64,000 nt of DNA from the human T2T-CHM13v2.0 reference genome, Homo sapiens. The DNA is taken from positions 29,440,001 through 29,504,000 of the forward strand of contig CP068257.2 in assembly GCA_009914755.4 (NCBI GenBank), given 5' to 3'. Of this stretch, positions 15,025 through 53,275 are shown in pieces. The notes below the pieces were generated by a model. The model did not search any database. It saw only the letters and a list, made by a program, of their open reading frames with translations, and was not told the origin of the DNA. The stretch's first letter is position 1. Each line of letters begins with the position of its first letter. Both the position numbers and the translations under genes were made by a program.

Positions 15025-15391
15025 CAAAGATCGTCTTTATAACTTTTATTGCGGTAAAACGTGATATTTGGTAAGATATAATTTGCCATTCTAACCATTT
15101 GTAAGTGTACATTTCAGTGGCATCAATTATATTCACAATATCGTCCAACCATCACCACTATCCATTTCCAAAACTTTTTCATCACTCCAAATAGAAACTT
15201 TGTATCCGTTAAGAAATAATTCCTCCTCCCCTCCTCCTCCTCTCATTGCTGGTAACTTCTAATCTACTTTCTATCTCTATGAATTTGCCTGTTTTATATA
15301 TTTCATGTAACTAGGATTATGCAATATTTGTCCTTTTGTGTCTGGTTTATATCACTTACCATAATATTTTTGAGATTCATTCATGTTGTAG
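15025..15391 (-). mobile_element. L1 fragment (antisense of the ORF2 3' region), 5' piece of an element split by the LTR12 and Alu insertions
   Basis: ...tatccgttaagaaataattcctcctcccctcc...ctggtaacttctaatctactttctatctctatgaatttgcctgtt...gtccttttgtgtctggtttatatcacttaccataatatttttgagattcattcatgttgtag is the antisense L1 3' region; the same element continues at 16504-16530 and 16808-16995. Confidence 0.7.
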
Positions 15392-16503
15392 TGCGTCCGG
15401 AATTGGTGGCTTCTTCGTCTCACTGACTTCAAGAATGAAGCAGCAGACCCCCGCGGTGAGTGTTACAGTTCTTAAAGATGGTGTGTCTGGAGTTTGTTCC
15501 TTCTGGTGGTTTCGTGGTCTCGCTGACTTCAGGAGCGAAGCTGCAGACCTTCACGGTGAGTGTTACAGCTCTTAAAGGCTGCACGTCTGGAGTTTCGTTC
15601 CTTCCGGTGGGTTCATGGTCTTGCTGGCCTCAGGAGTGAAGCTGCAGACCTTCGCGGTGAGTATTACAGCTCATAAAAGCGGCGCAGACCCAAAAAGTTA
15701 GCTGCAGCAAGATTTATTACAAACAGCAAAAGAACAAATCCTCCACAGCATGGAAAGGAACCTCAGCGGTTCGGGTGGCCTGCTTTTATTCCCTCATTTG
15801 GTCCCACCCACATCCTGCTGATTGGCCCATTTTACAGAGAGCTGATTGGTCCGTTCTACAGAGAGCTGTTCGGTCTGTTTTGACCGAGTGCTGATTGGTG
15901 CGCTTACAAATCTTTAACTAGACACAGAGTGCTGATTGGTGCGTTTACAATCCTTTAGCTAGACACAAAAGTTCCCCAAGTCCCCACCCGATTAGCCAGA
16001 CACAGAGCAATGATTGGTGCGTTTACAAACCTTTAGCTAGACACAAGTGCTGATTGGTGCATTTACAATCCTTCAGCTAGACGGAAAAGTTCTCCAAGTC
16101 CCCACCCCGCCTACAAGCCCAGCCGGCTTCACCTCTCTCTGGCACTCCCATGGGTCTTTGCGGCACCTAGCCTGGGCACTCCCGCAGCCCGGACGGAGCT
16201 CGTTCCGGATCAAGCCCAGCGGACACCTGCCGGCCGCGCCAAGCGCAGAGCCCGCCGAGCCCGCGCCCACCTGGAACCGTGCCGGCCTGCGAGCGCCGTG
16301 CGCAGCCCCGGCTCCCGCCCGCGCCTCTTCCTCCACACCTCCCCGCCAGCAGAGGGAGCCGGCTCTGGCCTCGGCCAGCCCCAGAGAGGGGCCCCCACAG
16401 CGAAGCAGCGGGGTGAAGGGCTCTTGGAGCAGGGACAGAGCGGAGGCCAAGGCCGAGGAGGCGCCAAGAGCGAGCGAGGGCTGCTAGCAGTTGCCACCTC
16501 TCA
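15392..16503 (+). mobile_element. Solo LTR12 (ERV9-family LTR), full-length form with a GC/CpG-rich 3' segment; flanked by a 4-bp TSD GTAG
   Basis: Begins TGcgtccggaattggtggc; three gctgacttca.ga..gaagc.gcagacc..c.cggtgagtgttacagctc blocks; the tgctgattggtgcgtttacaa.cctttagctagaca repeats; a GC-rich region at 16120-16490 (CpG-dense, e.g. ccggccgcgccaagcgcagagcccgccgagcccgcgcccacc); ends ccacctctCA. GTAG occurs at 15388-15391 and 16504-16507. Inserted into an L1. Confidence 0.75.
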
Positions 16504-16530
16504 GTAGCATGCATCAAAACTTTATTACAT

Positions 16531-16807
16531 GGGGTGCAGTGGTTCACGCCTGTAATCCTAGCACTTTGGGAGGCCGAGGCGGGCGAATCACCTGAGGTCA
16601 GGAGTTCAAGACCAGCCTGGCCAGCATGGTGAAACCCCGTCTCTACCAAAAATACAAAAATCAGTCAGGTGTGGTGGGCCACACCTGTAATCCCAGGTAC
16701 TTGGGAGGCTGAAACAGGAGAATCGCTGAACCTGGGAGGCAGAGGTTGCAGTGAGCTCCAGCCTGGGCGACAGAGCAAGACCCTGTCTCAGAAAAAAAAA
16801 AAAAAAA
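16531..16807 (+). mobile_element. Alu with 11-bp TSD, inserted at the LTR12/L1 junction
   Basis: ggggtgcagtggttcacgcctgtaatcctagcactttgggaggccgaggcgggcgaatcacctgaggtcaggagttcaagaccagcctggccagc...gaaaaaaaaaaaaaaaa; TSD AAAACTTTATT at 16517-16527 and after the poly(A). Confidence 0.92.
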
Positions 16808-25589: not shown

Positions 25590-25994
<405 letters not shown>

Positions 25995-26334
25995 TAGTTT
26001 TCCAGCCTGAGCAACCTGAGAGAAGGTGAGGCCATTTACTGAGATGACGGAAGAAGATAAAGTGAAGGTGGAAATGATAAGTTCAGTTTGGGACATATTG
26101 GCCTTGAGGGGCTTTGTAAATTTTCAGGTTCTGAGGCTCCAGTGGTGGCAGCAGCAATCACCCGTGGCCTTGTGTGTGGCACCCAGCATCTGTTCTAATT
26201 CCATCCATCACCAGCTGATTCTCATTTCCCAAGCCTTTGTTCAGGCTATCGAACTCCAGGGATCTGAGTTACCCTCTCCTATTCCTAAACACTGTCCCCA
26301 GCCAAACCCCACTTAACCTAATTACTAGGCATGT

Positions 26335-26440
26335 GAGCCTGGGCAAACCGCTTCACTGCTCTAGGCCTCGGTTCCTCATCTGTAAAATGAGAGGGTTACA
26401 AAATATGACGTCCAAGGGTCCTTCTACGTCCATTCTGGTT
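26335..26440 (+). mobile_element. MIR fragment
   Basis: gggcaaaccgcttcactgctctaggcctcggttcctcatctgtaaaatgagagggttac matches the MIR core (..gggcaagttacttaacctctctgtgcctcagtttcctcatctgtaaaatgggg). Confidence 0.5.
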
Positions 26441-26690
26441 CTAAATAAAATGCGGCACTTTGCTGATCCACCGCGAGAGGGCACCAGAGAAACGTCCTCG
26501 CACAGGACCGCGCTGAAAGTGCCCCGAACCAGCCAGGCACGGTACCAGGCGGGATGCTGTGAGGGAGGTGGAAATAAGGTGGAACGCCATCCTTCCGCAT
26601 CCTTCCGCATCCTTCCTACTCGGGCAAACCCTTAGATCTGGGAAAAACGTTCGATAAGCAGCAACCGCAGCCAACATTCTATTTATCCCC
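26440..26690. promoter_or_regulatory. Small CpG-rich repeat-free block (about 15 CpG in 250 bp) containing a 10-bp tandem triplet CATCCTTCCG
   Basis: ccaccgcgagagggcaccagagaaacgtcctcgcacaggaccgcgctgaaagtgccccgaaccagccaggcacggtaccaggcgggatgctg...ggaacgccatccttccgcatccttccgcatccttcctactcgggcaaaccc...aaaacgttcgataagcagcaaccgcagcc. CpG density is far above the surrounding CpG-depleted sequence. Function unknown. Confidence 0.3.
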
Positions 26691-27642
26691 TTTATTTCTT
26701 TATCAAGACAAAAATCATTCTCCGGCTCTTCACTGCCAGAACCTGTTCGTTAAATGCACGAATTTTCAAGGTAAATTAGATCCAACTGGCACATTACAAT
26801 CACCTGGATGCTCTTAAATACACCGATGCTCCGCTCCCAACCCAGAGCAGCGTGAGGGGCCACAGCCCTCCCTTTAGCTAAAAGATGAACTTGGGACAGA
26901 TTCCTGCTTGGGACGGGTTCCTGCTCATCTCCCACTCCTGGACCCCGGAAACTCACAGCCTGGTTGCTAAGTCAGATTTAACTCCTTTGTGGACATTGCC
27001 AAAAAAGCTTGAGACGATCCTACAGGTCTCCAGCAGGGAGCACGGGGGTACACGTCATACCCTCAAAGCTGGGTCGGCAAAAAGCCCTTGATGCGTGGCG
27101 AGCTTGCTCTGTTATCCTTACTACGAGAAGCAGAGTGGCATCTTGCTCCTTGGATTTCTAGCATACAGTCCTGTTATGATAGCTAATCGATAAACTGTCT
27201 GGCTTGGAAATGCACGGTCTTCCAGTCTTTCCCTCTGTGTGCGGTCTAATCCCGGTCATGAACACGAAACACAAAAGTTGCTGTTTGTGGTGTGAGCCAC
27301 ACCTTCCTCCCTCACCTCTAAGATGGTGAGAAAAGATAAGCTTATCCGCCCAATTCATCTGACAGGGTTTGGGAGGACCAGATACATGTATAGGTACATG
27401 TTCTGAAGTGTATAATACAAATGCAATCTCCAGGTGGAATTATTTTAAAGGTGTGATTAATTTTACTGTTGATAATATAATTATACAAGGGTGTCATTGT
27501 TTTCAAGGTAACGTTCACATCACAGTGTTTTATTTACAATAGCTAAAATGTAAATGATCTAAATATCCAACATTATCAAATATCAAGTTGAGACCCTCCC
27601 TTTGTTAGCAAGTATTTGAGGACCTATAGCGTGTTAGTCTGT

Positions 27643-45525: not shown

Positions 45526-46154
45526 TTTCTGCACTTCCAACAAGCTCCCAGTGACACCGACGCTGCTGGTGTCAGGACCTCCACTGTGAGGAGCAAGTAG
45601 CTACACCACAGGGCTCCCCATGCGCCAGGGAGAGGCTCTTCTAGTGACAGGAGACAATCTTTTCACTGAGGGCAGGGATGGATGGGGTAACATTGATGGG
45701 TAAGGTTTGTAAGGGACTCGAGAGGCTCAGATCTGGGGACTCTGACAGGAAGAGAAAGGCAGCCCAAGACTGTATTTACCTTGTTTGGTGATTCTGTGAA
45801 AGACTCAGGCAGCAGGCCCCCGGTGATAAAATGTGGAGTGATTCAAGAGCTCAGTCAGGCCAGTCAGAGCTCTGCACTTCACCCCAATATTTTCACAGGA
45901 ACCCCCCCAGCCTGCTCCCATCGGGATAGGCAGGAGACTGGAAAAGAAACAGTGCCCAGTAGGGGCAACGTTAGGTCAAGATGCCATGCAACTGTAATGC
46001 ACCTTTTGTTGTTGTTAAAACTTCAAGCGCTACAACAGCGTTCTCCTGATGATCACGAGTTATTTCAATAAATGGCATTCCCAGGAATCTTCTCCCACGG
46101 CCGCTCTCCCGCCAACAATTCATACTCATCCTCCCATCCAAAAAGGCATAGAAC

Positions 46155-48112
46155 CGCCCAGACACTTTTCGTTATTTTTATTGTTTGACAAGCATTTACA
46201 ACGTTCCATTCATAGACCTAAAAACATAAAAATAGACCTTCTTTCAGCTTATAAAAGAAATATATAAGAACTTTTGACATAGACACGTCATGACCTTATG
46301 TACAAGAGACAATGGCACCCTCTCCAAGCACCAGACTTCCGAGTGTTTTCAGATGGATGTGTTGCACTGGAGCCAGTAAATGCGACGATTAGAAGCCTCT
46401 GCTTCCGTTTTCCATCTGGACGCGATCGAACCGGAGATGATATGGAAAAATGCAGTGATACAAAGGGTATAGAAACCATTCTAAAGCTTTTTCAGAAAAC
46501 CAGAAGATATAGCAAAAATTTAATAGAATAAAACTTTCAAAAGATCAAGCTCGAAGCCCTGGAAACCCGAAAGGCGGGGGGAATACAGGGTGGGAACGCA
46601 GGAAAAGCAGGCAGAGGCACAAGAGCATGATGTACTGAACTCTCTATTGTCTGGAAATATAAAGTCATAACTGATTTTTATAAAATATAACTCCTAAAGC
46701 TACTATAAAATTCAGGTCTTTAAAGTACCTACTGATGTGTCAAACACCAAATAGATATTTTCCCCAAAAAGAAAGTTTTCATAGTATTTTAAACCCTTCT
46801 TAGGAAGTGGACATTGTGACATGGGAAAAGAAAAAGCTATAAACCTTTTTTTAAAAAAAAAAAAAAAATTGAAAGTGCTATAACTTGTTTTTCTTCTTAG
46901 TATTTGGATATCTGTTTAGACTGTTAATGTTTTGAGCATGTTTACCCTGTTTCGTTGGCATGAAGAAAGTGTTAAACACAAGAGAAGTTTTTAAAGAGGT
47001 TGTTCTGTTTAAAGGTTTGGTTATGGACTGTCAGGGAAGGGGAAGGTAATCTATGGATGAAGATGCAATTTTGATGGAAAAACCAATGATCACCATGGCA
47101 ACCCCATGAGAAGGAGGCTCCCCTCCCTGCCATGTGCAACAGACACACACACCGCCCACCGGGGTGTCATGTTTAATCCAACCAAACTCCCATCTCAAAT
47201 ATAGATTCAAACATTAAAAAAAAAAAATCCGCTTTTTGGAAGAAAAGTATATCCTTCGCATGAGCTTGCTGGCCTTTCATATATAAATATAAAACCACCA
47301 CGCCTCACTCTCTCTGTAAAAGGTTATATCCTCATTTTTTAGGCTCAGGGATACATACACTAACACTGTAAAATTCTCATCTATTTGTGCCCCTGTATCT
47401 CAGGTAAAATACAAAAAATAGTGTTTCTTTTCTTTCTCTCAAGCGATAAATTTGGATCTCTTTTCAAAGAGTTTGGCATCTCTATAATTCTATGCAAAAC
47501 TAGAGCTTCCGAACATGGACACAGAGTAAGACCAGCCATAGACCAAAACAGGAAGGAAAAAAAAAAAGAGGCTCATTGAAACATGAATCGCCACCCTCTC
47601 CTCACACATTCTTAAAATACACGGAGATTCTCAGACATGGAAGAGGGAAGGGTACAGTCAGAACACGGCAAGCTGTACACATTTCATTTTGTGTGTGAAA
47701 GAGGTTTCCCCAGCTAGGAGACTGATTTCAGATAGAAGGATCGTGTGTGTGCTACTATCCCTTAAATTAATCTGTTGTACATCCGTTAACTCCTGGGGTG
47801 ATTTGCTTTCCAGTGCTATAGAATCTTTTTTCTTTTAATTGTTCAGGCCCTGATTTATTGAGAATAAATAAAAGCCCTTAGTAATATACAGAAGATAGGA
47901 CTCAAGCTTATTTGGGATTCTGATCAATTCTTTCTGATGTTGTTGAAAATGACAAAGTTGGGTGGCTACATGGCTTCAGAACCAAGTCAGCTGCCAAAAC
48001 CGTGTGTGCAAGAGCGCGACCTAAGGGGACATTCTTGTCGACGGTACAGGAGGGTGGGCAGAGTTAGGGCAGGAAGTATCTACACACATTCTCTACGGGG
48101 CAGGTGACGCAG
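46155..48112 (-). other. Probable 3' UTR of the minus-strand gene (repeat-free, about 2 kb) with two candidate poly(A) signals
   Basis: Contiguous with the stop codon at 48113-48115. This is the longest repeat-free stretch in the window. Minus-strand AATAAA equals plus-strand TTTATT at 47853-47858 (implying a ~280-nt UTR) and at 46177-46182 (implying a ~1.95-kb UTR). A CpG-retaining sub-block lies at 46300-46480 (..cttccgagtg..gcgacgattagaagcctctgcttccgttttccatctggacgcgatcgaaccggagatg..). Confidence 0.4.
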
Positions 48113-48598
48113 TCAGATCTCAGTGTTCAGTTTCCTGGAGGGGGCAAAGTCTTCACGCCTAACCCAAATGACTTCCTCGCTTGCGCTCTCCAGGCCTCCA
48201 TTGATCCCCGACAGGGCAGCTTGCTTCTTGAGCTGTGCCATGCGGGACGCGTGACTATCCAGGGTTTTCCGGCCTCTTTCCCGCTGACTGATGGAGGTGG
48301 CCTGAAGCCGCTCCTGCAGGTCTCTGTCCACTGAGGCACCCTTCACGGACTCACAGAACTCATCATCGTCACTGAGGATGTCTGTCTCCTTGATGTCATC
48401 TTGCTCCTCATACTGAGCAAGATCAAACTGCTCCTCTACCCATCGGTCAGTGTCCCCACCACCGGGGGGCTGCTGGGACTCTCTCTCCGGGCTGCTTGCG
48501 GAGACGGCATCAGAATCAATGGTAAACCTGTTTCGAGCCAGCCGCCGCCTCCTCCTCCCAAGAGACTTGCTTGGGGCAGACACTGCACACACACACAA
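48113..48598 (-). CDS. Candidate 3'-terminal coding exon of an unidentified minus-strand protein-coding gene. It encodes a ~160-aa C-terminal tail: (V)SAPSKSLGRRRRRLARNRFTIDSDAVSASSPERESQQPPGGGDTDRWVEEQFDLAQYEEQDDIKETDILSDDDEFCESVKGASVDRDLQERLQATSISQRERGRKTLDSHASRMAQLKKQAALSGINGGLESASEEVIWVRREDFAPSRKLNTEI*
   Basis: A 161-codon open frame, the only long ORF in the window that is not repeat-derived. It begins directly after a polypyrimidine tract plus AG (minus strand ..ttttatatttttgtgtgtgtgtgcag|TGTCTGCCCCAAGC..; the AG is at plus 48599-48600) and is in phase 1. Stop TGA at 48113-48115. It is GC- and CpG-richer than its flanks. It contains an acidic Ser/Asp/Glu cluster and a basic R5 stretch. 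The ORF-track start codon is a bacterial-table artefact (TTG inside the intron). Confidence 0.6.
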   Translation of the reverse strand: MCVCAVSAPSKSLGRRRRRLARNRFTIDSDAVSASSPERESQQPPGGGDTDRWVEEQFDLAQYEEQDDIKETDILSDDDEFCESVKGASVDRDLQERLQATSISQRERGRKTLDSHASRMAQLKKQAALSGINGGLESASEEVIWVRREDFAPSRKLNTEI

Positions 48599-51500
48599 AA
48601 ATATAAAAATAAAACCCCCACATGCTTTACGTGAGATGAAAATCCAGAAAGCAAAGGACAGGAGAAAATAAAAACCAAAACGGTATGCATTGAATGCCTT
48701 GATGTCTTTTGGGGCTTAAAGTCTACATATCACCAATCTGTCATGGAGCATTTACCTTGTCGAGGTATCTGGACTTAGAGGATGTTCTAGCAACTGATGC
48801 AAGGGCAAGGGGGAACCGGGGCACACAGGAGAGGTTGTAGGTTATGGGCAAAGGGGCACTCAACTCCCTCTGAAATAATCTACTGTTCTAGCCTGTGCAC
48901 CTAAGAGATGGGTAACACAGACAGCAGCTGCTCTCAAGTAGACAGACCACTGATTTGGGGATCAGTTAGTGAGTTAGTGTCCTCAATCCTGGCCATGTCC
49001 CATGGCCCAGTGCTATGAAGATCCCCAGGGCTGTCCCAGGGTTGTTTAGCTGGAATAGGTCTTTAGTAAGGGTGGGGGTGCATCTATGGTTTTGCTGTCT
49101 TTGTAGAATGTGCATCAAGGAGGCAGAAGCACCAGTGTAAGTTACTTGTTTTCTGGGAACTGGAACATAACATTTCTTGGGATCTGCAGTTAGATTAAGG
49201 GCACCACGTCACTCTTAGAGAGCCTATGAAAAAGAGTGGCTCTCAAAGACATGGGATCTTCAGTTATTTCCCTGTCTTCTTTCTGACAAAGTCCCACATG
49301 AGCTAGGAAGCTAAGCAAATGTGTGCCTTAGTCTCCCCCAATTACAGTCTGTGTATCACTCATTCTTCTCCAAAGCAATTAACATATCAGTGCCTCATTG
49401 GAATGAGAAATAAAAAACCGATGACATCCAAGCAGTTTGATCAACAAAGTGCTGTATAAAGTGACTACCAGTTAAGAAAAATTCATTCTTTCACCTACTG
49501 CCCTCTAGGAAGCCAGAATTAAAAACAAGCAAACAAAAGACACCATCCGATCAAGCCAACAATCCCACCACACACATACACGAGACTGCTCACAGGGAAG
49601 GCTTCTGCTTCTCCCTCGAGAGTGAAGCGGTTGTTGCATTAGACACGAAAAGGTGAAATGCAACACGGGCTTTCCAGTGGAGGGGAAGAGTCTCAACGCC
49701 AACTGGGAGCTGCTTTCCTGAAACCTAAGCCCCAGAACCATCCAATTGCTTCAGTGCTGCTAGAAGATGCCTCGTGTCTCAATTACTGCCAAATGCAGCC
49801 TTGACTTCGAACCCAGCAGGCACAGGGTTAGAGTGGTCAACGAGGGGCTGAATTGGCTCTCATGGCAGCCATCCTCTGCTTCAGACCCCTGCGTGTCCAT
49901 CACTATTCCTGAGTGTTCCGCCATCTAAAACTGTGGAACAAATGGACACTACTGTTGGTTGAGGATGGGAATAAAAGCCATTTCCAGGCAAAATGGAAAA
50001 AGGGAATAGAAAATAGGAAAAAAAACAAACAAACTCCGACTTCTATTGAGAAGAGACAAAAATTCTTGTTCACTTTTATCTCAGCACCAGCAAAATACAG
50101 CATCCCTCTCTCCAATCACCACATTAGAACTACCCCAACTCAAAGCTACTGGAAATATTTGTTAATGATTTGCATGCTGAAGTATCTAGGAGTAAAGTGT
50201 GTTAATGTCTACATCTTTGAAATATGTCAAAAATAAGATGAGGTGATGGATGACAGATGGATTCTAACAGATGAGTGATAATGAGAATATAGAAAAACAT
50301 TATAGAATATAGATGGTAGGTATGAATTCTTTCAGCTCTTCTATAAGTTTAAACATTTTCATAAGAAAATAGATAGAACAAAGAAAAAAATTTTTAATTG
50401 GGTTATTGGCAAACGTATAGTACTTTAGGCTGAATATGGAAGCAGAGTATTTGGCTTTACTATCCTAGCCAAACAGAACAGAGGGAGAAATAAACTACCT
50501 GAGTATTCAAGACAAAGCAAAATGAAGCATGAGTATCTGTTCCTAGTATGCTTAAGAACCCGGCTACCATTATTGGGTTCTTCCCAGTCTTTCAGGGATG
50601 CAATCTTTGACTATTTCCAGTGGTCACTGTTAAGACTGACCAGCTATGCTGTGCTGATCTACTCAGGCACCATTTTAAAATCCTCTGACATGAAGATTCT
50701 GAGGATAGTGAGATGCCTCCAAACAAAGTGATACAGACTTTCTTCAGCCAAAAATGAGCCATCAGGCAGAAAGATCTTTCAATCAGCTAAATCCAACAGG
50801 CTATGACATCAAGGCTTTCTCTTGGTAATCATGACGGACGATGGTGTTAAATTGTGGGCTGGTTTTGTTTTCTTTCCAAATGGATCTCAGCAGGAAAACT
50901 TCTGAGTGACAGACTAACCATGCTTAGTTTCAAAGTAAATGCAGCTCTGAATTTAGGTTCATTGATTAACAACTGAAACAGGTTGAGTTCCCTGAGGTTG
51001 AGACACATATTCCCAAACCTTTTTAAACATTTCCCTAGCAAACAAGAGGGGCAGATAAGACAAATCCAAGATAAAAATCTCTAAAGTGAGTTATAAAGGA
51101 CCAATAAACTATTCTTCCATGGCGACCCCATGCGAAACTGCGCATATGGACGTATGAAAGACTCTTAGGATACATCAGAAAACTCAGCAAAGTGCTGGGT
51201 GTTCACTGCACTAAGTTTTCAACAAACATTTATCAATTGATTGGAGAAGAGGTTTACAGTAACTAGTCCCCTAAATTAAATTTAAGGTGCTTGAAGAATG
51301 TAATATCCCATGTCAAGCCAGGTAGGTTTTGTCTATGAAAACCTTCAAGCATTCACACTTCTGTCCATCCCTCTTCAATAGGTAGGATGGTAATGGGTAC
51401 AAAGGCCAGAAACTTTTCTGGCAAGTGCAAAGGGGGCCTTCTTTTAATGAAATCCTCCCTGCAAAATTCTGGGCTGCCTCTTAAGAAAGGTTTGATAAAA

Positions 51501-53275
51501 ATGTTAGTATCTTGATGTCATTAAGTCCCTAAGTATTAAAACAGCCTTCTTCCTAGATACATTTTGCTACCATTGACAGGTGGCAGTATTTATTTTATTT
51601 CTCTATTGCTCCACTGTAATGGATTAAGTCCTACAAGAATATTTATGCTGGGACCATTTAAACTCTAGATTCTTGTTTCCAAGAATAGCTCGAGGCTTCC
51701 CCAAATTAACATGGAGACTAAAAATAAAGTTGCAGGCACAAGGTCAGGATAAAAACTGGAAGTGCCATGTGGGCTACCAAACCTAGAATCCTTACTACTG
51801 AGAGCAGGCATTGCTGTGCTGCCAGGCCGTGAAGCCACCATGTTCTCAGAACAGAGGGCTGTGACCTTGCTGAAATGTGACACACGGCTTTCTGCTAGAC
51901 AAAGCTGGCTGTCATGCAAAGCAGCGACTCTCATTCTGCAAGCAGGCTGAGACAGCCTCTCCAGAAAGAGGATGTGTCTGCAACCCGACTTGGCAAATGA
52001 GGGAGGAGCTCACCAGCCAAAAGGAGAAGGGAGGCAAAGGGAAGGCTTGAGGGAGGACAAGAGGAATGTAGATACAGGGCGGATCCCCAGGAGCCACTGG
52101 GAAGGAGGCAAGGGCAAGGAACCTCACACCAGGGAAAAACCGTCCTCCTACATCAGCCCCCACCAGGCCACACCTCACCCCCACTCAACAAGGAGGTCAA
52201 GCTCACTGGAGTTCTACTGCGGAGTGGGGGTGACGGGAATCTTGAACGTCCGAATCCCCACAGTACCTGCCCTGCTCATGGCCGGCCTGGCCCCCTTCAG
52301 TGCACACAATCTTTTGCCTCCAAAAGGGACATATTGCTGGGATGAGGGAAGGCTCTCGGTTTTGAGGAGCTGTCTTCTGTGCTTATCACGCAGGATTGAA
52401 TGCACAGCCTTTAGGAAATCCTTTCGGCTCTCTGGGGAGCTAGGAAAAGAAGATTTACAGATGTTAGAGAATCAGGGCTTAACACATGGGGAACTTCTAA
52501 GGTTATCAGGTGCAACCAAATAAATATCCCTTAGGGCCAAAGGCTAAAGACTGAGGCCTTGACTCCAATTTCTATGCTGAGCGGTGATTTCACGCCAGTG
52601 ATAAAGAGCACATAACTCCTTTCCCTTCATGCTTTGTGATCTATCTCCTGGCGCTGATGTGGGGCAGAGTAGCCCATTAACGAACAGATCTATGGACAGT
52701 GGGAGTTTGTACCAAGAAGCTGCCAAATTCTGCTCCTGGCACTCAAGGCAGAGTTTTTCATTATAAAATGTTTTTGAGGGCAAATGAACCACAAGATTCT
52801 TGCGGCTCTGCAGAGCACCCAAAGGCCGACGTCTCAACGTCCTAATGTCCTCTAGAGCTGAGCTCCCTCCTGGTAAATATCAATGGTTCCCATGACACAT
52901 TTCAACATGTATATATTAAGGCTGTAAAGAACTATAAAATCTTCCCAAGTCCTAATTCTCATGGTTAAAAAAAAAAAAAAAAAGTGCTTCCTAGGAAGAG
53001 TTATTTTTCTTATTATATTCCCAATATTTTTACCCAGGTAAGTTTTACCTGGTATTCCCTATTAACAATAAATACGGCATCCGTGTAGGCAGGGCTACTA
53101 AACCCCATGGACCTTACCAACAAAATCACAAACAGATGAGCCAAAATAGACGGTAAAGGTGGTGCTCAAACCCCACGAGGTTATACAAACAACATTTCAC
53201 TTATAGTCCTGACAGCTTCCCGGGGATCTGCCTTTTGTTGACCTCTGTCACCCAACACAGAGAGATCTGATGTAG

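What the first reader, a model, noticed from the sequence alone, without database searches (positions are those of the whole stretch)
26440..27340. Repeat-free CpG-enriched block with a triplicated 10-mer (possible regulatory element or non-coding exon)
In CpG-depleted surroundings, 26440-26690 carries about 15 CpGs (observed/expected ratio clearly elevated) together with the tandem triplet CATCCTTCCG x3. A second CpG-retaining unique stretch follows at 27000-27340 (..gcgtggcgagc..aatcgat..cacggtc..tgcggtc..cccggtc..acacgaaac..). It is not part of any recognisable repeat and lies well away from the LTR12 elements. Retained CpGs usually mean germline hypomethylation (a promoter or enhancer) or purifying selection.
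Basis: seen in the sequence. Interest (0 to 1): 0.5.

Follow-up and report, generated by a model that had tools for sequence, protein, structure and literature searches.

The report
Weak orphan CpG island downstream of TIAM1
A real but ordinary small CpG-rich patch sits in intergenic human-type DNA about 20 kb past the end of a TIAM-family gene; it is most likely a weak "orphan" CpG island (a regulatory element kept unmethylated in the germline), but the tools here could not test methylation, transcription or conservation.

Summary
26440-26690 has 17 CpGs (GC 0.55, o/e 0.89) against 2.6 expected from the window's non-Alu background (P~3e-9). The enriched core is 26306-26729 (424 bp, 22 CpGs, o/e 0.81), with none of the TpG/CpA excess seen in the flanks. 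CATCCTTCCG occurs 2.9 times at 26588-26616/7; the third copy ends in T. 27000-27340 is a weaker shoulder (12 CpGs, o/e 0.58).

The core passes the Gardiner-Garden/Frommer criteria, fails Takai-Jones, and is intermediate-CpG class at 500 bp. It is not coding, not an Rfam family, not a structured RNA, not repeated in the window, and shows no insertion hallmarks.

"Repeat-free" is only partly right: a MIR abuts the core (26318-26421) and a MER5-like fragment lies at 26792-26847. That MIR carries more CpGs than the other six MIRs in the window, which argues for regional protection from CpG decay over a young insertion.

Context: the window holds the last exons and 3'UTR of a TIAM-family RhoGEF (probably TIAM1) on the minus strand. 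The block lies about 19.5 kb beyond its polyA site.

Best reading: a weak orphan CpG island, either a promoter or an enhancer-type element. On the minus strand the 10-mer repeat forms tandem ETS-like CGGAAG cores next to a YY1-like ATGGCG. Ordinary; low interest.

The parts
26306..26729 (.). Core CpG-island-like block (424 bp, 22 CpGs, GC 0.51, o/e 0.81), with its densest part at 26440-26690
   Evidence: Passes Gardiner-Garden/Frommer, fails Takai-Jones. The best 500-bp window has o/e 0.85-0.88 at GC 0.49.
26588..26617 (-). Tandem 10-mer: CATCCTTCCG twice plus CATCCTTCCT. On the minus strand it reads CGGAAGGATG twice plus AGGAAGGATG, giving two CGGAAG and one GGAAG ETS-type cores.
   Evidence: TRF, the repeat finder D1, motif scan. 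CGGAAG x2 versus 0.23 in dinucleotide shuffles, P = 0.02, but both copies come from one duplication event.
26585..26590 (-). ATGGCG (YY1-type core) directly 3' of the ETS-like repeat on the minus strand: GGAAGGATGGCGTTCC
   Evidence: Not significant on its own (P = 0.15). Calling it a YY1 site rests on knowledge of the consensus AAGATGGCGGC.
26406..26412 (+). TGACGTC, a 7/8 match to the CRE palindrome, inside the MIR tail
   Evidence: Expected 0.01 per block from the window-wide density.
26548..26553 (+). GGCGGG, a GC-box-like core
   Evidence: Not significant (P = 0.29).
26318..26421 (+). MIR-family SINE fragment forming the left shoulder of the CpG-enriched zone. It has 3 CpGs in 104 bp (o/e 0.48).
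   Evidence: The other six MIRs in the window have o/e 0-0.22.
26792..26847 (+). MER5-like old DNA-transposon fragment inside the finding, with 2 CpGs
   Evidence: blastn E = 7e-5 against a from-memory consensus. A related copy lies in the window at 29885-30032.
26890..26923 (.). 17-mer tandem duplication: CTTGGGACAGATTCCTG / CTTGGGACGGGTTCCTG
   Evidence: D2.
27000..27340 (.). Second, weaker CpG-retaining stretch (12 CpGs, o/e 0.58, TpG o/e 1.32), the right shoulder of the island

Best explanation
A weak, intermediate-class 'orphan' CpG island: a core of about 0.4 kb (26306-26729) with a CpG-retaining shoulder out to about 27340. It lies in intergenic DNA about 19.5 kb beyond the polyA site of a TIAM-family gene, probably TIAM1.

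Inferred mechanism: transcription factors bound in germline and early-embryo cells keep the patch largely unmethylated. Its cytosines therefore escape the roughly 10-fold faster 5mC->T deamination that has stripped CpGs from the surroundings. CpGs persist, and new ones survive even in the adjacent ancient MIR.

Candidate factor sites are ETS-type (two CGGAAG plus one GGAAG, created by slippage of a 10-mer), an adjacent YY1-type ATGGCG, a CRE-like TGACGTC and a GC-box-like GGCGGG.

Functionally it would be either the promoter of an unannotated, probably non-coding, transcript or a distal enhancer-type element. Its orientation is undetermined.

Shown: the composition, its extent, its statistical excess, the absence of a decay signature, the absence of coding, RNA-family or insertion features, and the genomic context. 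Inferred: hypomethylation, factor binding, and any transcription.
For: - CpG excess: 17 observed against 2.6 expected (P = 3e-9). This is the second strongest non-Alu cluster in the window.
- Gardiner-Garden/Frommer criteria are met over 424 bp. The best 500-bp window has o/e 0.85-0.88.
- TpG/CpA o/e is about 1.0 inside and 1.2-1.5 outside, so there is no deamination footprint.
- The enrichment spills into an ancient MIR: 3 CpGs in 104 bp against 5 in 910 bp in six other MIRs. Several of these CpGs sit where the remembered consensus has CA. Age alone cannot explain that.
- There is no TSD, TIR or polyA tail and no other copy in the window.
- It is not coding, not in Rfam and not structured RNA.
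- Tandem CGGAAG cores plus ATGGCG resemble the GABP/YY1 sites typical of CpG-island promoters (PMC3668359 reports YY1 and GABP occupancy at active CGI promoters).
- About half of CpG islands are 'orphans' away from annotated promoters, and many show promoter activity (PMC2944787, abstract listed).
- The location outside the TIAM gene rests.
Against: - There is no direct evidence of hypomethylation, open chromatin, transcription or conservation. Every attempt to obtain orthologous sequence failed.
- The block is short and only 49-55% GC. It fails Takai-Jones and the high-CpG promoter class.
- The motif cluster is barely above composition-matched shuffles (P = 0.054), and both exact ETS-like cores derive from one duplication.
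- Orientation cues conflict. The YY1-like and TATA-like elements point to the minus strand, while splice-donor-like sites are better on the plus strand (26770, 27325).
- No repeat library (Dfam/RepeatMasker) was available to exclude a rare repeat family for the core.
Confidence: 0.55

Rival explanations
1. Neutral history rather than function. Either the core is evolutionarily young DNA (a recent insertion, duplication or rare young repeat) whose CpGs have not yet decayed, or it is a patch of GC-biased gene conversion at a past recombination hotspot that raised GC and created CpGs.
For: The core (26441-26766) begins exactly where the MIR ends. It has no other copy in the window to date it. It is short, only moderately GC-rich, and fails the stricter island definitions. 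No repeat library could be consulted.
Against: There is no target-site duplication, terminal inverted repeat or polyA tail. CpG enrichment extends into the neighbouring ancient MIR and the MER5-like fragment, which are certainly old. The enrichment tapers gradually over about 1 kb instead of having sharp edges. gBGC alone does not protect methylated CpGs, so an o/e of 0.85-0.9 with no TpG/CpA excess would be unusual.
Confidence: 0.2
2. Purifying selection on a conserved non-coding element or non-coding exon keeps individual CpGs despite methylation, as seems to happen at the end of the TIAM 3'UTR at 46000-46500.
For: The same window contains an AT-rich (GC 0.41) patch with o/e 0.85-1.0 at the distal 3'UTR, so selection-type CpG retention does occur locally. 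Plus-strand donor-like sites at 26770 and 27325 could delimit an exon.
Against: There is no RNA-family hit, no unusual RNA stability on either strand and no coding signal. The block contains a recent slippage product and adjoins degenerate transposon fragments, which is not typical of a deeply constrained element. Selection would not explain extra CpGs arising inside a MIR.
Confidence: 0.12
3. An architectural or insulator-type site (for example CTCF) whose binding locally excludes methylation, with no promoter or enhancer activity.
For: A partial CTCF-like core, AGAGGGCA preceded by CCACCGCG, lies at about 26468-26483 (the match was judged by eye against the remembered consensus CCASYAGRKGGCRS).
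Against: The match is poor in the 5' half. A single factor footprint would protect tens of bases, not about 400 bp plus shoulders.
Confidence: 0.08

Closest known systems
Orphan (intergenic) CpG islands, as mapped by CAP-seq (Illingworth et al. 2010, PMC2944787)
   Same: It is a non-repeat CpG cluster far from any recognised gene start, here about 19.5 kb 3' of a TIAM gene. CpG o/e is about 0.8-0.9 with no deamination footprint, and it carries motifs of CGI-promoter factors.
   Different: It is much smaller and less GC-rich than typical CAP-seq islands. Its unmethylated state and promoter marks, which define that class, were not testable here.
Intermediate-CpG (weak CGI) promoters in the HCP/ICP/LCP classification (Weber et al. 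2007; from memory)
   Same: The best 500-bp window has o/e 0.85 but GC below 0.55, which is the compositional definition of the intermediate class.
   Different: That class is defined for known TSSs. No TSS is demonstrated here.
GABP/ETS plus YY1 TATA-less CpG-island promoters (HCFC1-associated set, PMC3668359)
   Same: Tandem CGGAAG cores lie immediately next to an ATGGCG core on the same strand.
   Different: The cores are GCGGAAGG rather than the optimal CCGGAAGT. The YY1-like site lacks the flanking AAG...GC consensus. The cluster's enrichment over shuffles is marginal, and occupancy is untested.
LTR12 (HERV9 LTR) CpG-rich promoters elsewhere in the window
   Same: They are the other CpG-rich non-Alu DNA in the window (16033-16493).
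   Different: There is no sequence similarity: the best local match is 24 nt at 83%, E about 1. The block has no CCAAT-box tandem units. It is about 10 kb away.

Membership tests
CpG island, Gardiner-Garden & Frommer definition | Length >= 200 bp, GC >= 50%, CpG o/e >= 0.6 | tested here: met
   26306-26729: 424 bp, GC 0.509, o/e 0.81. Every 200-bp window passes.
CpG island, Takai-Jones definition | Length >= 500 bp, GC >= 55%, o/e >= 0.65 | tested here: not met
   No qualifying interval near 26-27 kb; only 15758-16730 qualifies in the window. The best 500-bp window here has GC 0.49-0.53.
High-CpG promoter class (HCP) | A 500-bp window with CpG ratio > 0.75 and GC > 0.55 | tested here: not met
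   The ratio of 0.85 is met, but GC is 0.494. That makes it intermediate class if it is a promoter at all.
Orphan CpG island / unannotated promoter | Unmethylated in vivo (CAP-seq or bisulfite) | not testable with these tools
   No methylome data. The only indirect evidence is compositional.
Orphan CpG island / unannotated promoter | Transcription initiation or H3K4me3 at the site | not testable with these tools
   No CAGE or ChIP data. Sequence cues for direction conflict.
Orphan CpG island / unannotated promoter | Remote from annotated gene starts | tested here: inconclusive
   It lies about 19.5 kb 3' of the TIAM gene's polyA site, and no coding exon was detected within 20 kb on either side. 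No gene annotation of the locus was available.
Known interspersed repeat | Similarity to a repeat consensus or to other genomic copies | tested here: inconclusive
   The flanks are MIR (26318-26421) and MER5-like (26792-26847). The core has no second copy in 64 kb and no Alu or LTR12 similarity. Dfam/RepeatMasker was not available.
Protein-coding exon or processed pseudogene of a CDS | An open frame with homologues | tested here: not met
   All stop-free frames >= 35 aa of 26250-27400, concatenated, gave no hit at E <= 1e-3 among 5.8 billion proteins. As a positive control, the same database found 204 homologues of the TIAM exon.
Rfam non-coding RNA families | A covariance-model match at the gathering score | tested here: not met
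   No matches in the window at gathering score. In E-value mode there was only noise, 13-19 bits against thresholds of 39-105.

The most novel reading that the evidence does not exclude
The block is a lineage-restricted (primate-age) promoter born next to a MIR. Slippage of a 10-mer would have generated tandem ETS/GABP-type sites beside a YY1-like core, creating a new hypomethylated initiation site. That site would drive an unannotated non-coding transcript downstream of TIAM1, giving a small example of de novo CpG-island and promoter birth.
Probability: 0.12. Interest if true: 0.35.

Novelty: new member of a known kind. Interest (0 to 1): 0.15.

Why it matters
If it is a real hypomethylated element, it is one more intergenic regulatory site near TIAM1, a Rac-GEF gene linked to neurodevelopmental disorder and cancer invasion. 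It might be relevant when interpreting non-coding variants or aberrant methylation there. Tens of thousands of such weak or orphan CpG islands exist in the human genome, and genome-wide maps (CpG-island tracks, ENCODE cCREs, CAP-seq) almost certainly already cover this one. It opens no new question.

Tried and rejected
- **Orthologue retrieval through spurious ORF calls:** a concatenated six-frame query of 26250-27400 gave no hits.
- **Host-contamination copies in metagenome and GTDB genome contigs:** using the stop-free frame as a pseudo-protein returned only chance bacterial matches, 39-64% identical over 25-50 aa with negligible DNA similarity.
- **Verbatim sequence strings in 8 million papers:** none found.
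- **Rfam:** nothing at gathering score or in E-value mode. No tRNAs.
- **Coding exon:** rejected.
- **Structured RNA:** rejected.
- **Alu, LTR12 or other in-window repeat for the core:** rejected.
- **Insertion hallmarks:** none.
- **Literature on TIAM1-AS1 and chr21 gene lists:** no positional information about the 3' flank. A search for the C-terminal peptide did not help separate TIAM1 from TIAM2, so that assignment rests on a 'TIAM1-like' label, the frog orthologue sharing ...KLNTEI, and memory.
- **Pfam and PDB on the TIAM exon and other long ORFs:** nothing.
- **Promoter direction:** a simple donor weight matrix and the U1/PAS asymmetry gave conflicting hints.

Full report
**What the window is.** The sequence is primate-type genomic DNA. 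It holds 28 Alu-like intervals, L1 fragments at about 17-23 kb, and LTR12-type tandem CCAAT-box units at about 11.2 kb and 15.4-16.1 kb. Its overall CpG o/e is 0.27. Two Alus, at 25641-25933 and 27665-27960, bracket the 1.7-kb interval that contains the finding.

**Checking the observation.** 26440-26690 holds 17 CpGs at GC 0.554 and o/e 0.89.
- With Alus masked, the window averages 1.04 CpG per 100 bp (o/e 0.24). That predicts 2.6 CpGs, so 17 is far beyond chance (Poisson P = 3e-9).
- Among non-Alu 250-bp windows the block is above the 99th percentile. Only the LTR12-associated island at 16033-16493 is stronger.
- Every 200-bp window across 26306-26729 satisfies GC >= 0.5 and o/e >= 0.6 (424 bp, 22 CpGs, o/e 0.81). 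The Takai-Jones criteria are not met.
- The best 500-bp window has o/e 0.85-0.88 at GC 0.49, which is intermediate-CpG class rather than a strong island.
- TpG and CpA, the deamination products, are at expectation inside the block (0.92-1.0) and in excess in the flanks (1.2-1.5).
- The 10-mer array is real: two exact CATCCTTCCG copies and a third ending in T, at 26588-26617. About half a dozen similar small complex duplications occur in the window, so it is an ordinary slippage product.
- 27000-27340 (12 CpGs, o/e 0.58, TpG o/e 1.32) is a weaker, partly decayed shoulder.

**Is it repeat-free?** Only partly.
It ends where the dense CpG block starts.
- A MER5-like fragment lies at 26792-26847. 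Independently of memory, 26767-26822 has a relative at 29885-30032 in the same window.
- The core, 26441-26766, has no second copy in the window and no similarity to the Alu or LTR12 copies.
- No repeat library was available, so a rare repeat family cannot be formally excluded.

**What it is not.**
- *Coding sequence.* ORFs across the region look random. All stop-free frames of at least 35 aa from 26250-27400, concatenated, found nothing among 5.8 billion proteins. The same tool found 204 homologues of a genuine exon elsewhere in the window, which serves as a positive control.
- *A known RNA family.* Rfam finds nothing at gathering score, and only 13-19-bit noise in E-value mode. There are no tRNAs.
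- *A structured RNA.* RNA folding of the block and of 27000-27340 on both strands gives z-scores of -1.67, -0.05, -0.93 and +0.48.
- *A recent insertion.* No target-site duplications, terminal inverted repeats or polyA tail bracket the block.

**An internal control for age.** The MIR abutting the block carries 3 CpGs in 104 bp (o/e 0.48). The six other MIR copies detected in the window total 5 CpGs in 910 bp (o/e 0-0.22). In the alignment to the remembered consensus, these CpGs sit where the consensus has CA or other non-CpG dinucleotides. The MER5-like fragment also carries two CpGs. So the enrichment extends into DNA that is certainly ancient, and it tapers over about 1 kb. That is what regional protection from methylation-dependent decay predicts. 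A young CpG-rich insertion would not look like this. The sample is small (3 CpGs), so this is supportive rather than decisive.

**Genomic context.**
- A 200-codon open frame at 48116-48715 (-) turned out to contain a genuine terminal coding exon. It has a polypyrimidine tract and AG acceptor at about 48583, 156 codons ending ...EDFAPSRKLNTEI*, and downstream polyA signals.
- Its homologues are TIAM-family RhoGEF C-termini. Tetrapod ORF fragments are 60-94% identical, a frog protein has the same ...KLNTEI end, a salmonid protein is labelled 'TIAM1-like', and one hit carries PF00621.
- The preceding exon (...GGKRLCALKG) lies at about 52244-52315 (-).
- The 3'UTR runs to an AATAAA at 46177-46182 (-).
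- From memory this is human TIAM1 (chr21q22.11, minus strand). I could not confirm TIAM1 versus TIAM2 with the tools.
- The gene therefore occupies about 64000 down to 46160 on the minus strand. The CpG block lies about 19.5 kb beyond its polyA site, in intergenic DNA. No other coding exon was detected nearby.

**Promoter-like content.** On the minus strand the 10-mer array reads CGGAAGGATG CGGAAGGATG, preceded by AGGAAGGATG. That gives two CGGAAG and one GGAAG ETS-type cores, followed directly by ATGGCG, a YY1-type core. There are also a 7/8 CRE (TGACGTC, 26406), a GGCGGG box (26548), a weak CTCF-like core (26476) and a TATA-like ATAAATA on the minus strand (26680).
- GABP/ETS and YY1 sites are typical of active CpG-island promoters (PMC3668359).
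- Against dinucleotide-preserving shuffles of the block, however, the combined cluster is only marginal (4 observed against 1.3 expected, P = 0.054). The two exact ETS-type cores are one duplication event.
- Orientation cues conflict. The YY1-like and TATA-like elements suggest minus-strand initiation near 26600-26650. The plus direction has better splice-donor-like sites (26770 AAG|GTAAAT, 27325 ATG|GTGAGA, and others) and no AATAAA for 1 kb.

**Most likely explanation.** A weak orphan CpG island: a patch of about 0.4 kb, with shoulders, kept largely unmethylated in the germline by bound factors, so that CpGs escape deamination-driven loss. It would act as the promoter of an unannotated, probably non-coding, transcript or as a distal enhancer-type element. 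About half of mammalian CpG islands are such orphans, and many show promoter activity (PMC2944787). I put this at about 0.55.

**Rival explanations.**
- Neutral history, meaning young DNA, a rare repeat or gBGC (0.2).
- Selection on a conserved non-coding element (0.12). The same window offers a probable example at the end of the TIAM 3'UTR: 46000-46500, GC 0.41, o/e 0.85-1.0.
- A purely architectural site such as CTCF (0.08).

**What could not be done.** Methylation, chromatin, CAGE and conservation data would settle the matter and were unreachable. Attempts to obtain orthologous DNA through ORF calls, contaminated metagenome or genome contigs, or literature strings all failed.

**Verdict.** The object is an ordinary member of a very common class, most likely already covered by genome-wide annotation. 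Interest is low.

Noticed in passing
window 48116-48583 (-), 52244-52315 (-), 3'UTR to about 46160: These are the last coding exon (ending ...EDFAPSRKLNTEI*), part of the preceding exon, and the roughly 2-kb 3'UTR of a TIAM-family RhoGEF. It is probably human TIAM1, which fixes the locus and the gene's orientation.
   Followed up: yes
window 46000-46500: This is an AT-rich patch (GC 0.41) with 18 CpGs (o/e 0.85-1.0), spanning the distal 3'UTR/polyA region of the TIAM gene and about 150 bp beyond. It looks like CpG retention without island-type composition, plausibly from selection on a conserved 3'UTR end.
   Followed up: partly
window ~10700-11520 and ~15300-16500: Two LTR12-type (HERV9 LTR) segments carry tandem GCTGATTGG (CCAAT-box) units. 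The second holds the strongest CpG island in the window (16033-16493, GC 0.69, 38 CpGs).
   Followed up: partly
window 27380-27401: Two palindromic decamers, AGATACATGT and AGGTACATGT, lie 2 nt apart. They resemble imperfect p53-type half-sites (RRRCWWGYYY), just right of the finding.
   Followed up: no
window 27214-27257: CGGTC occurs three times within 45 bp (gcaCGGTC..tgCGGTC..ccCGGTC). This accounts for three of the second stretch's CpGs. No explanation.
   Followed up: no
window 34643-35519 (-): Two long protein-like open frames (143 and 133 aa, e.g. ...VENWSKGDSCYTLAKRLAAFC...) have no Pfam family. They are probably derived from an old retroelement.
   Followed up: partly
window 26890-26923: A 17-mer tandem duplication (CTTGGGACAGATTCCTG / CTTGGGACGGGTTCCTG) lies between the two CpG-retaining stretches. 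One copy has gained a CpG.
   Followed up: no
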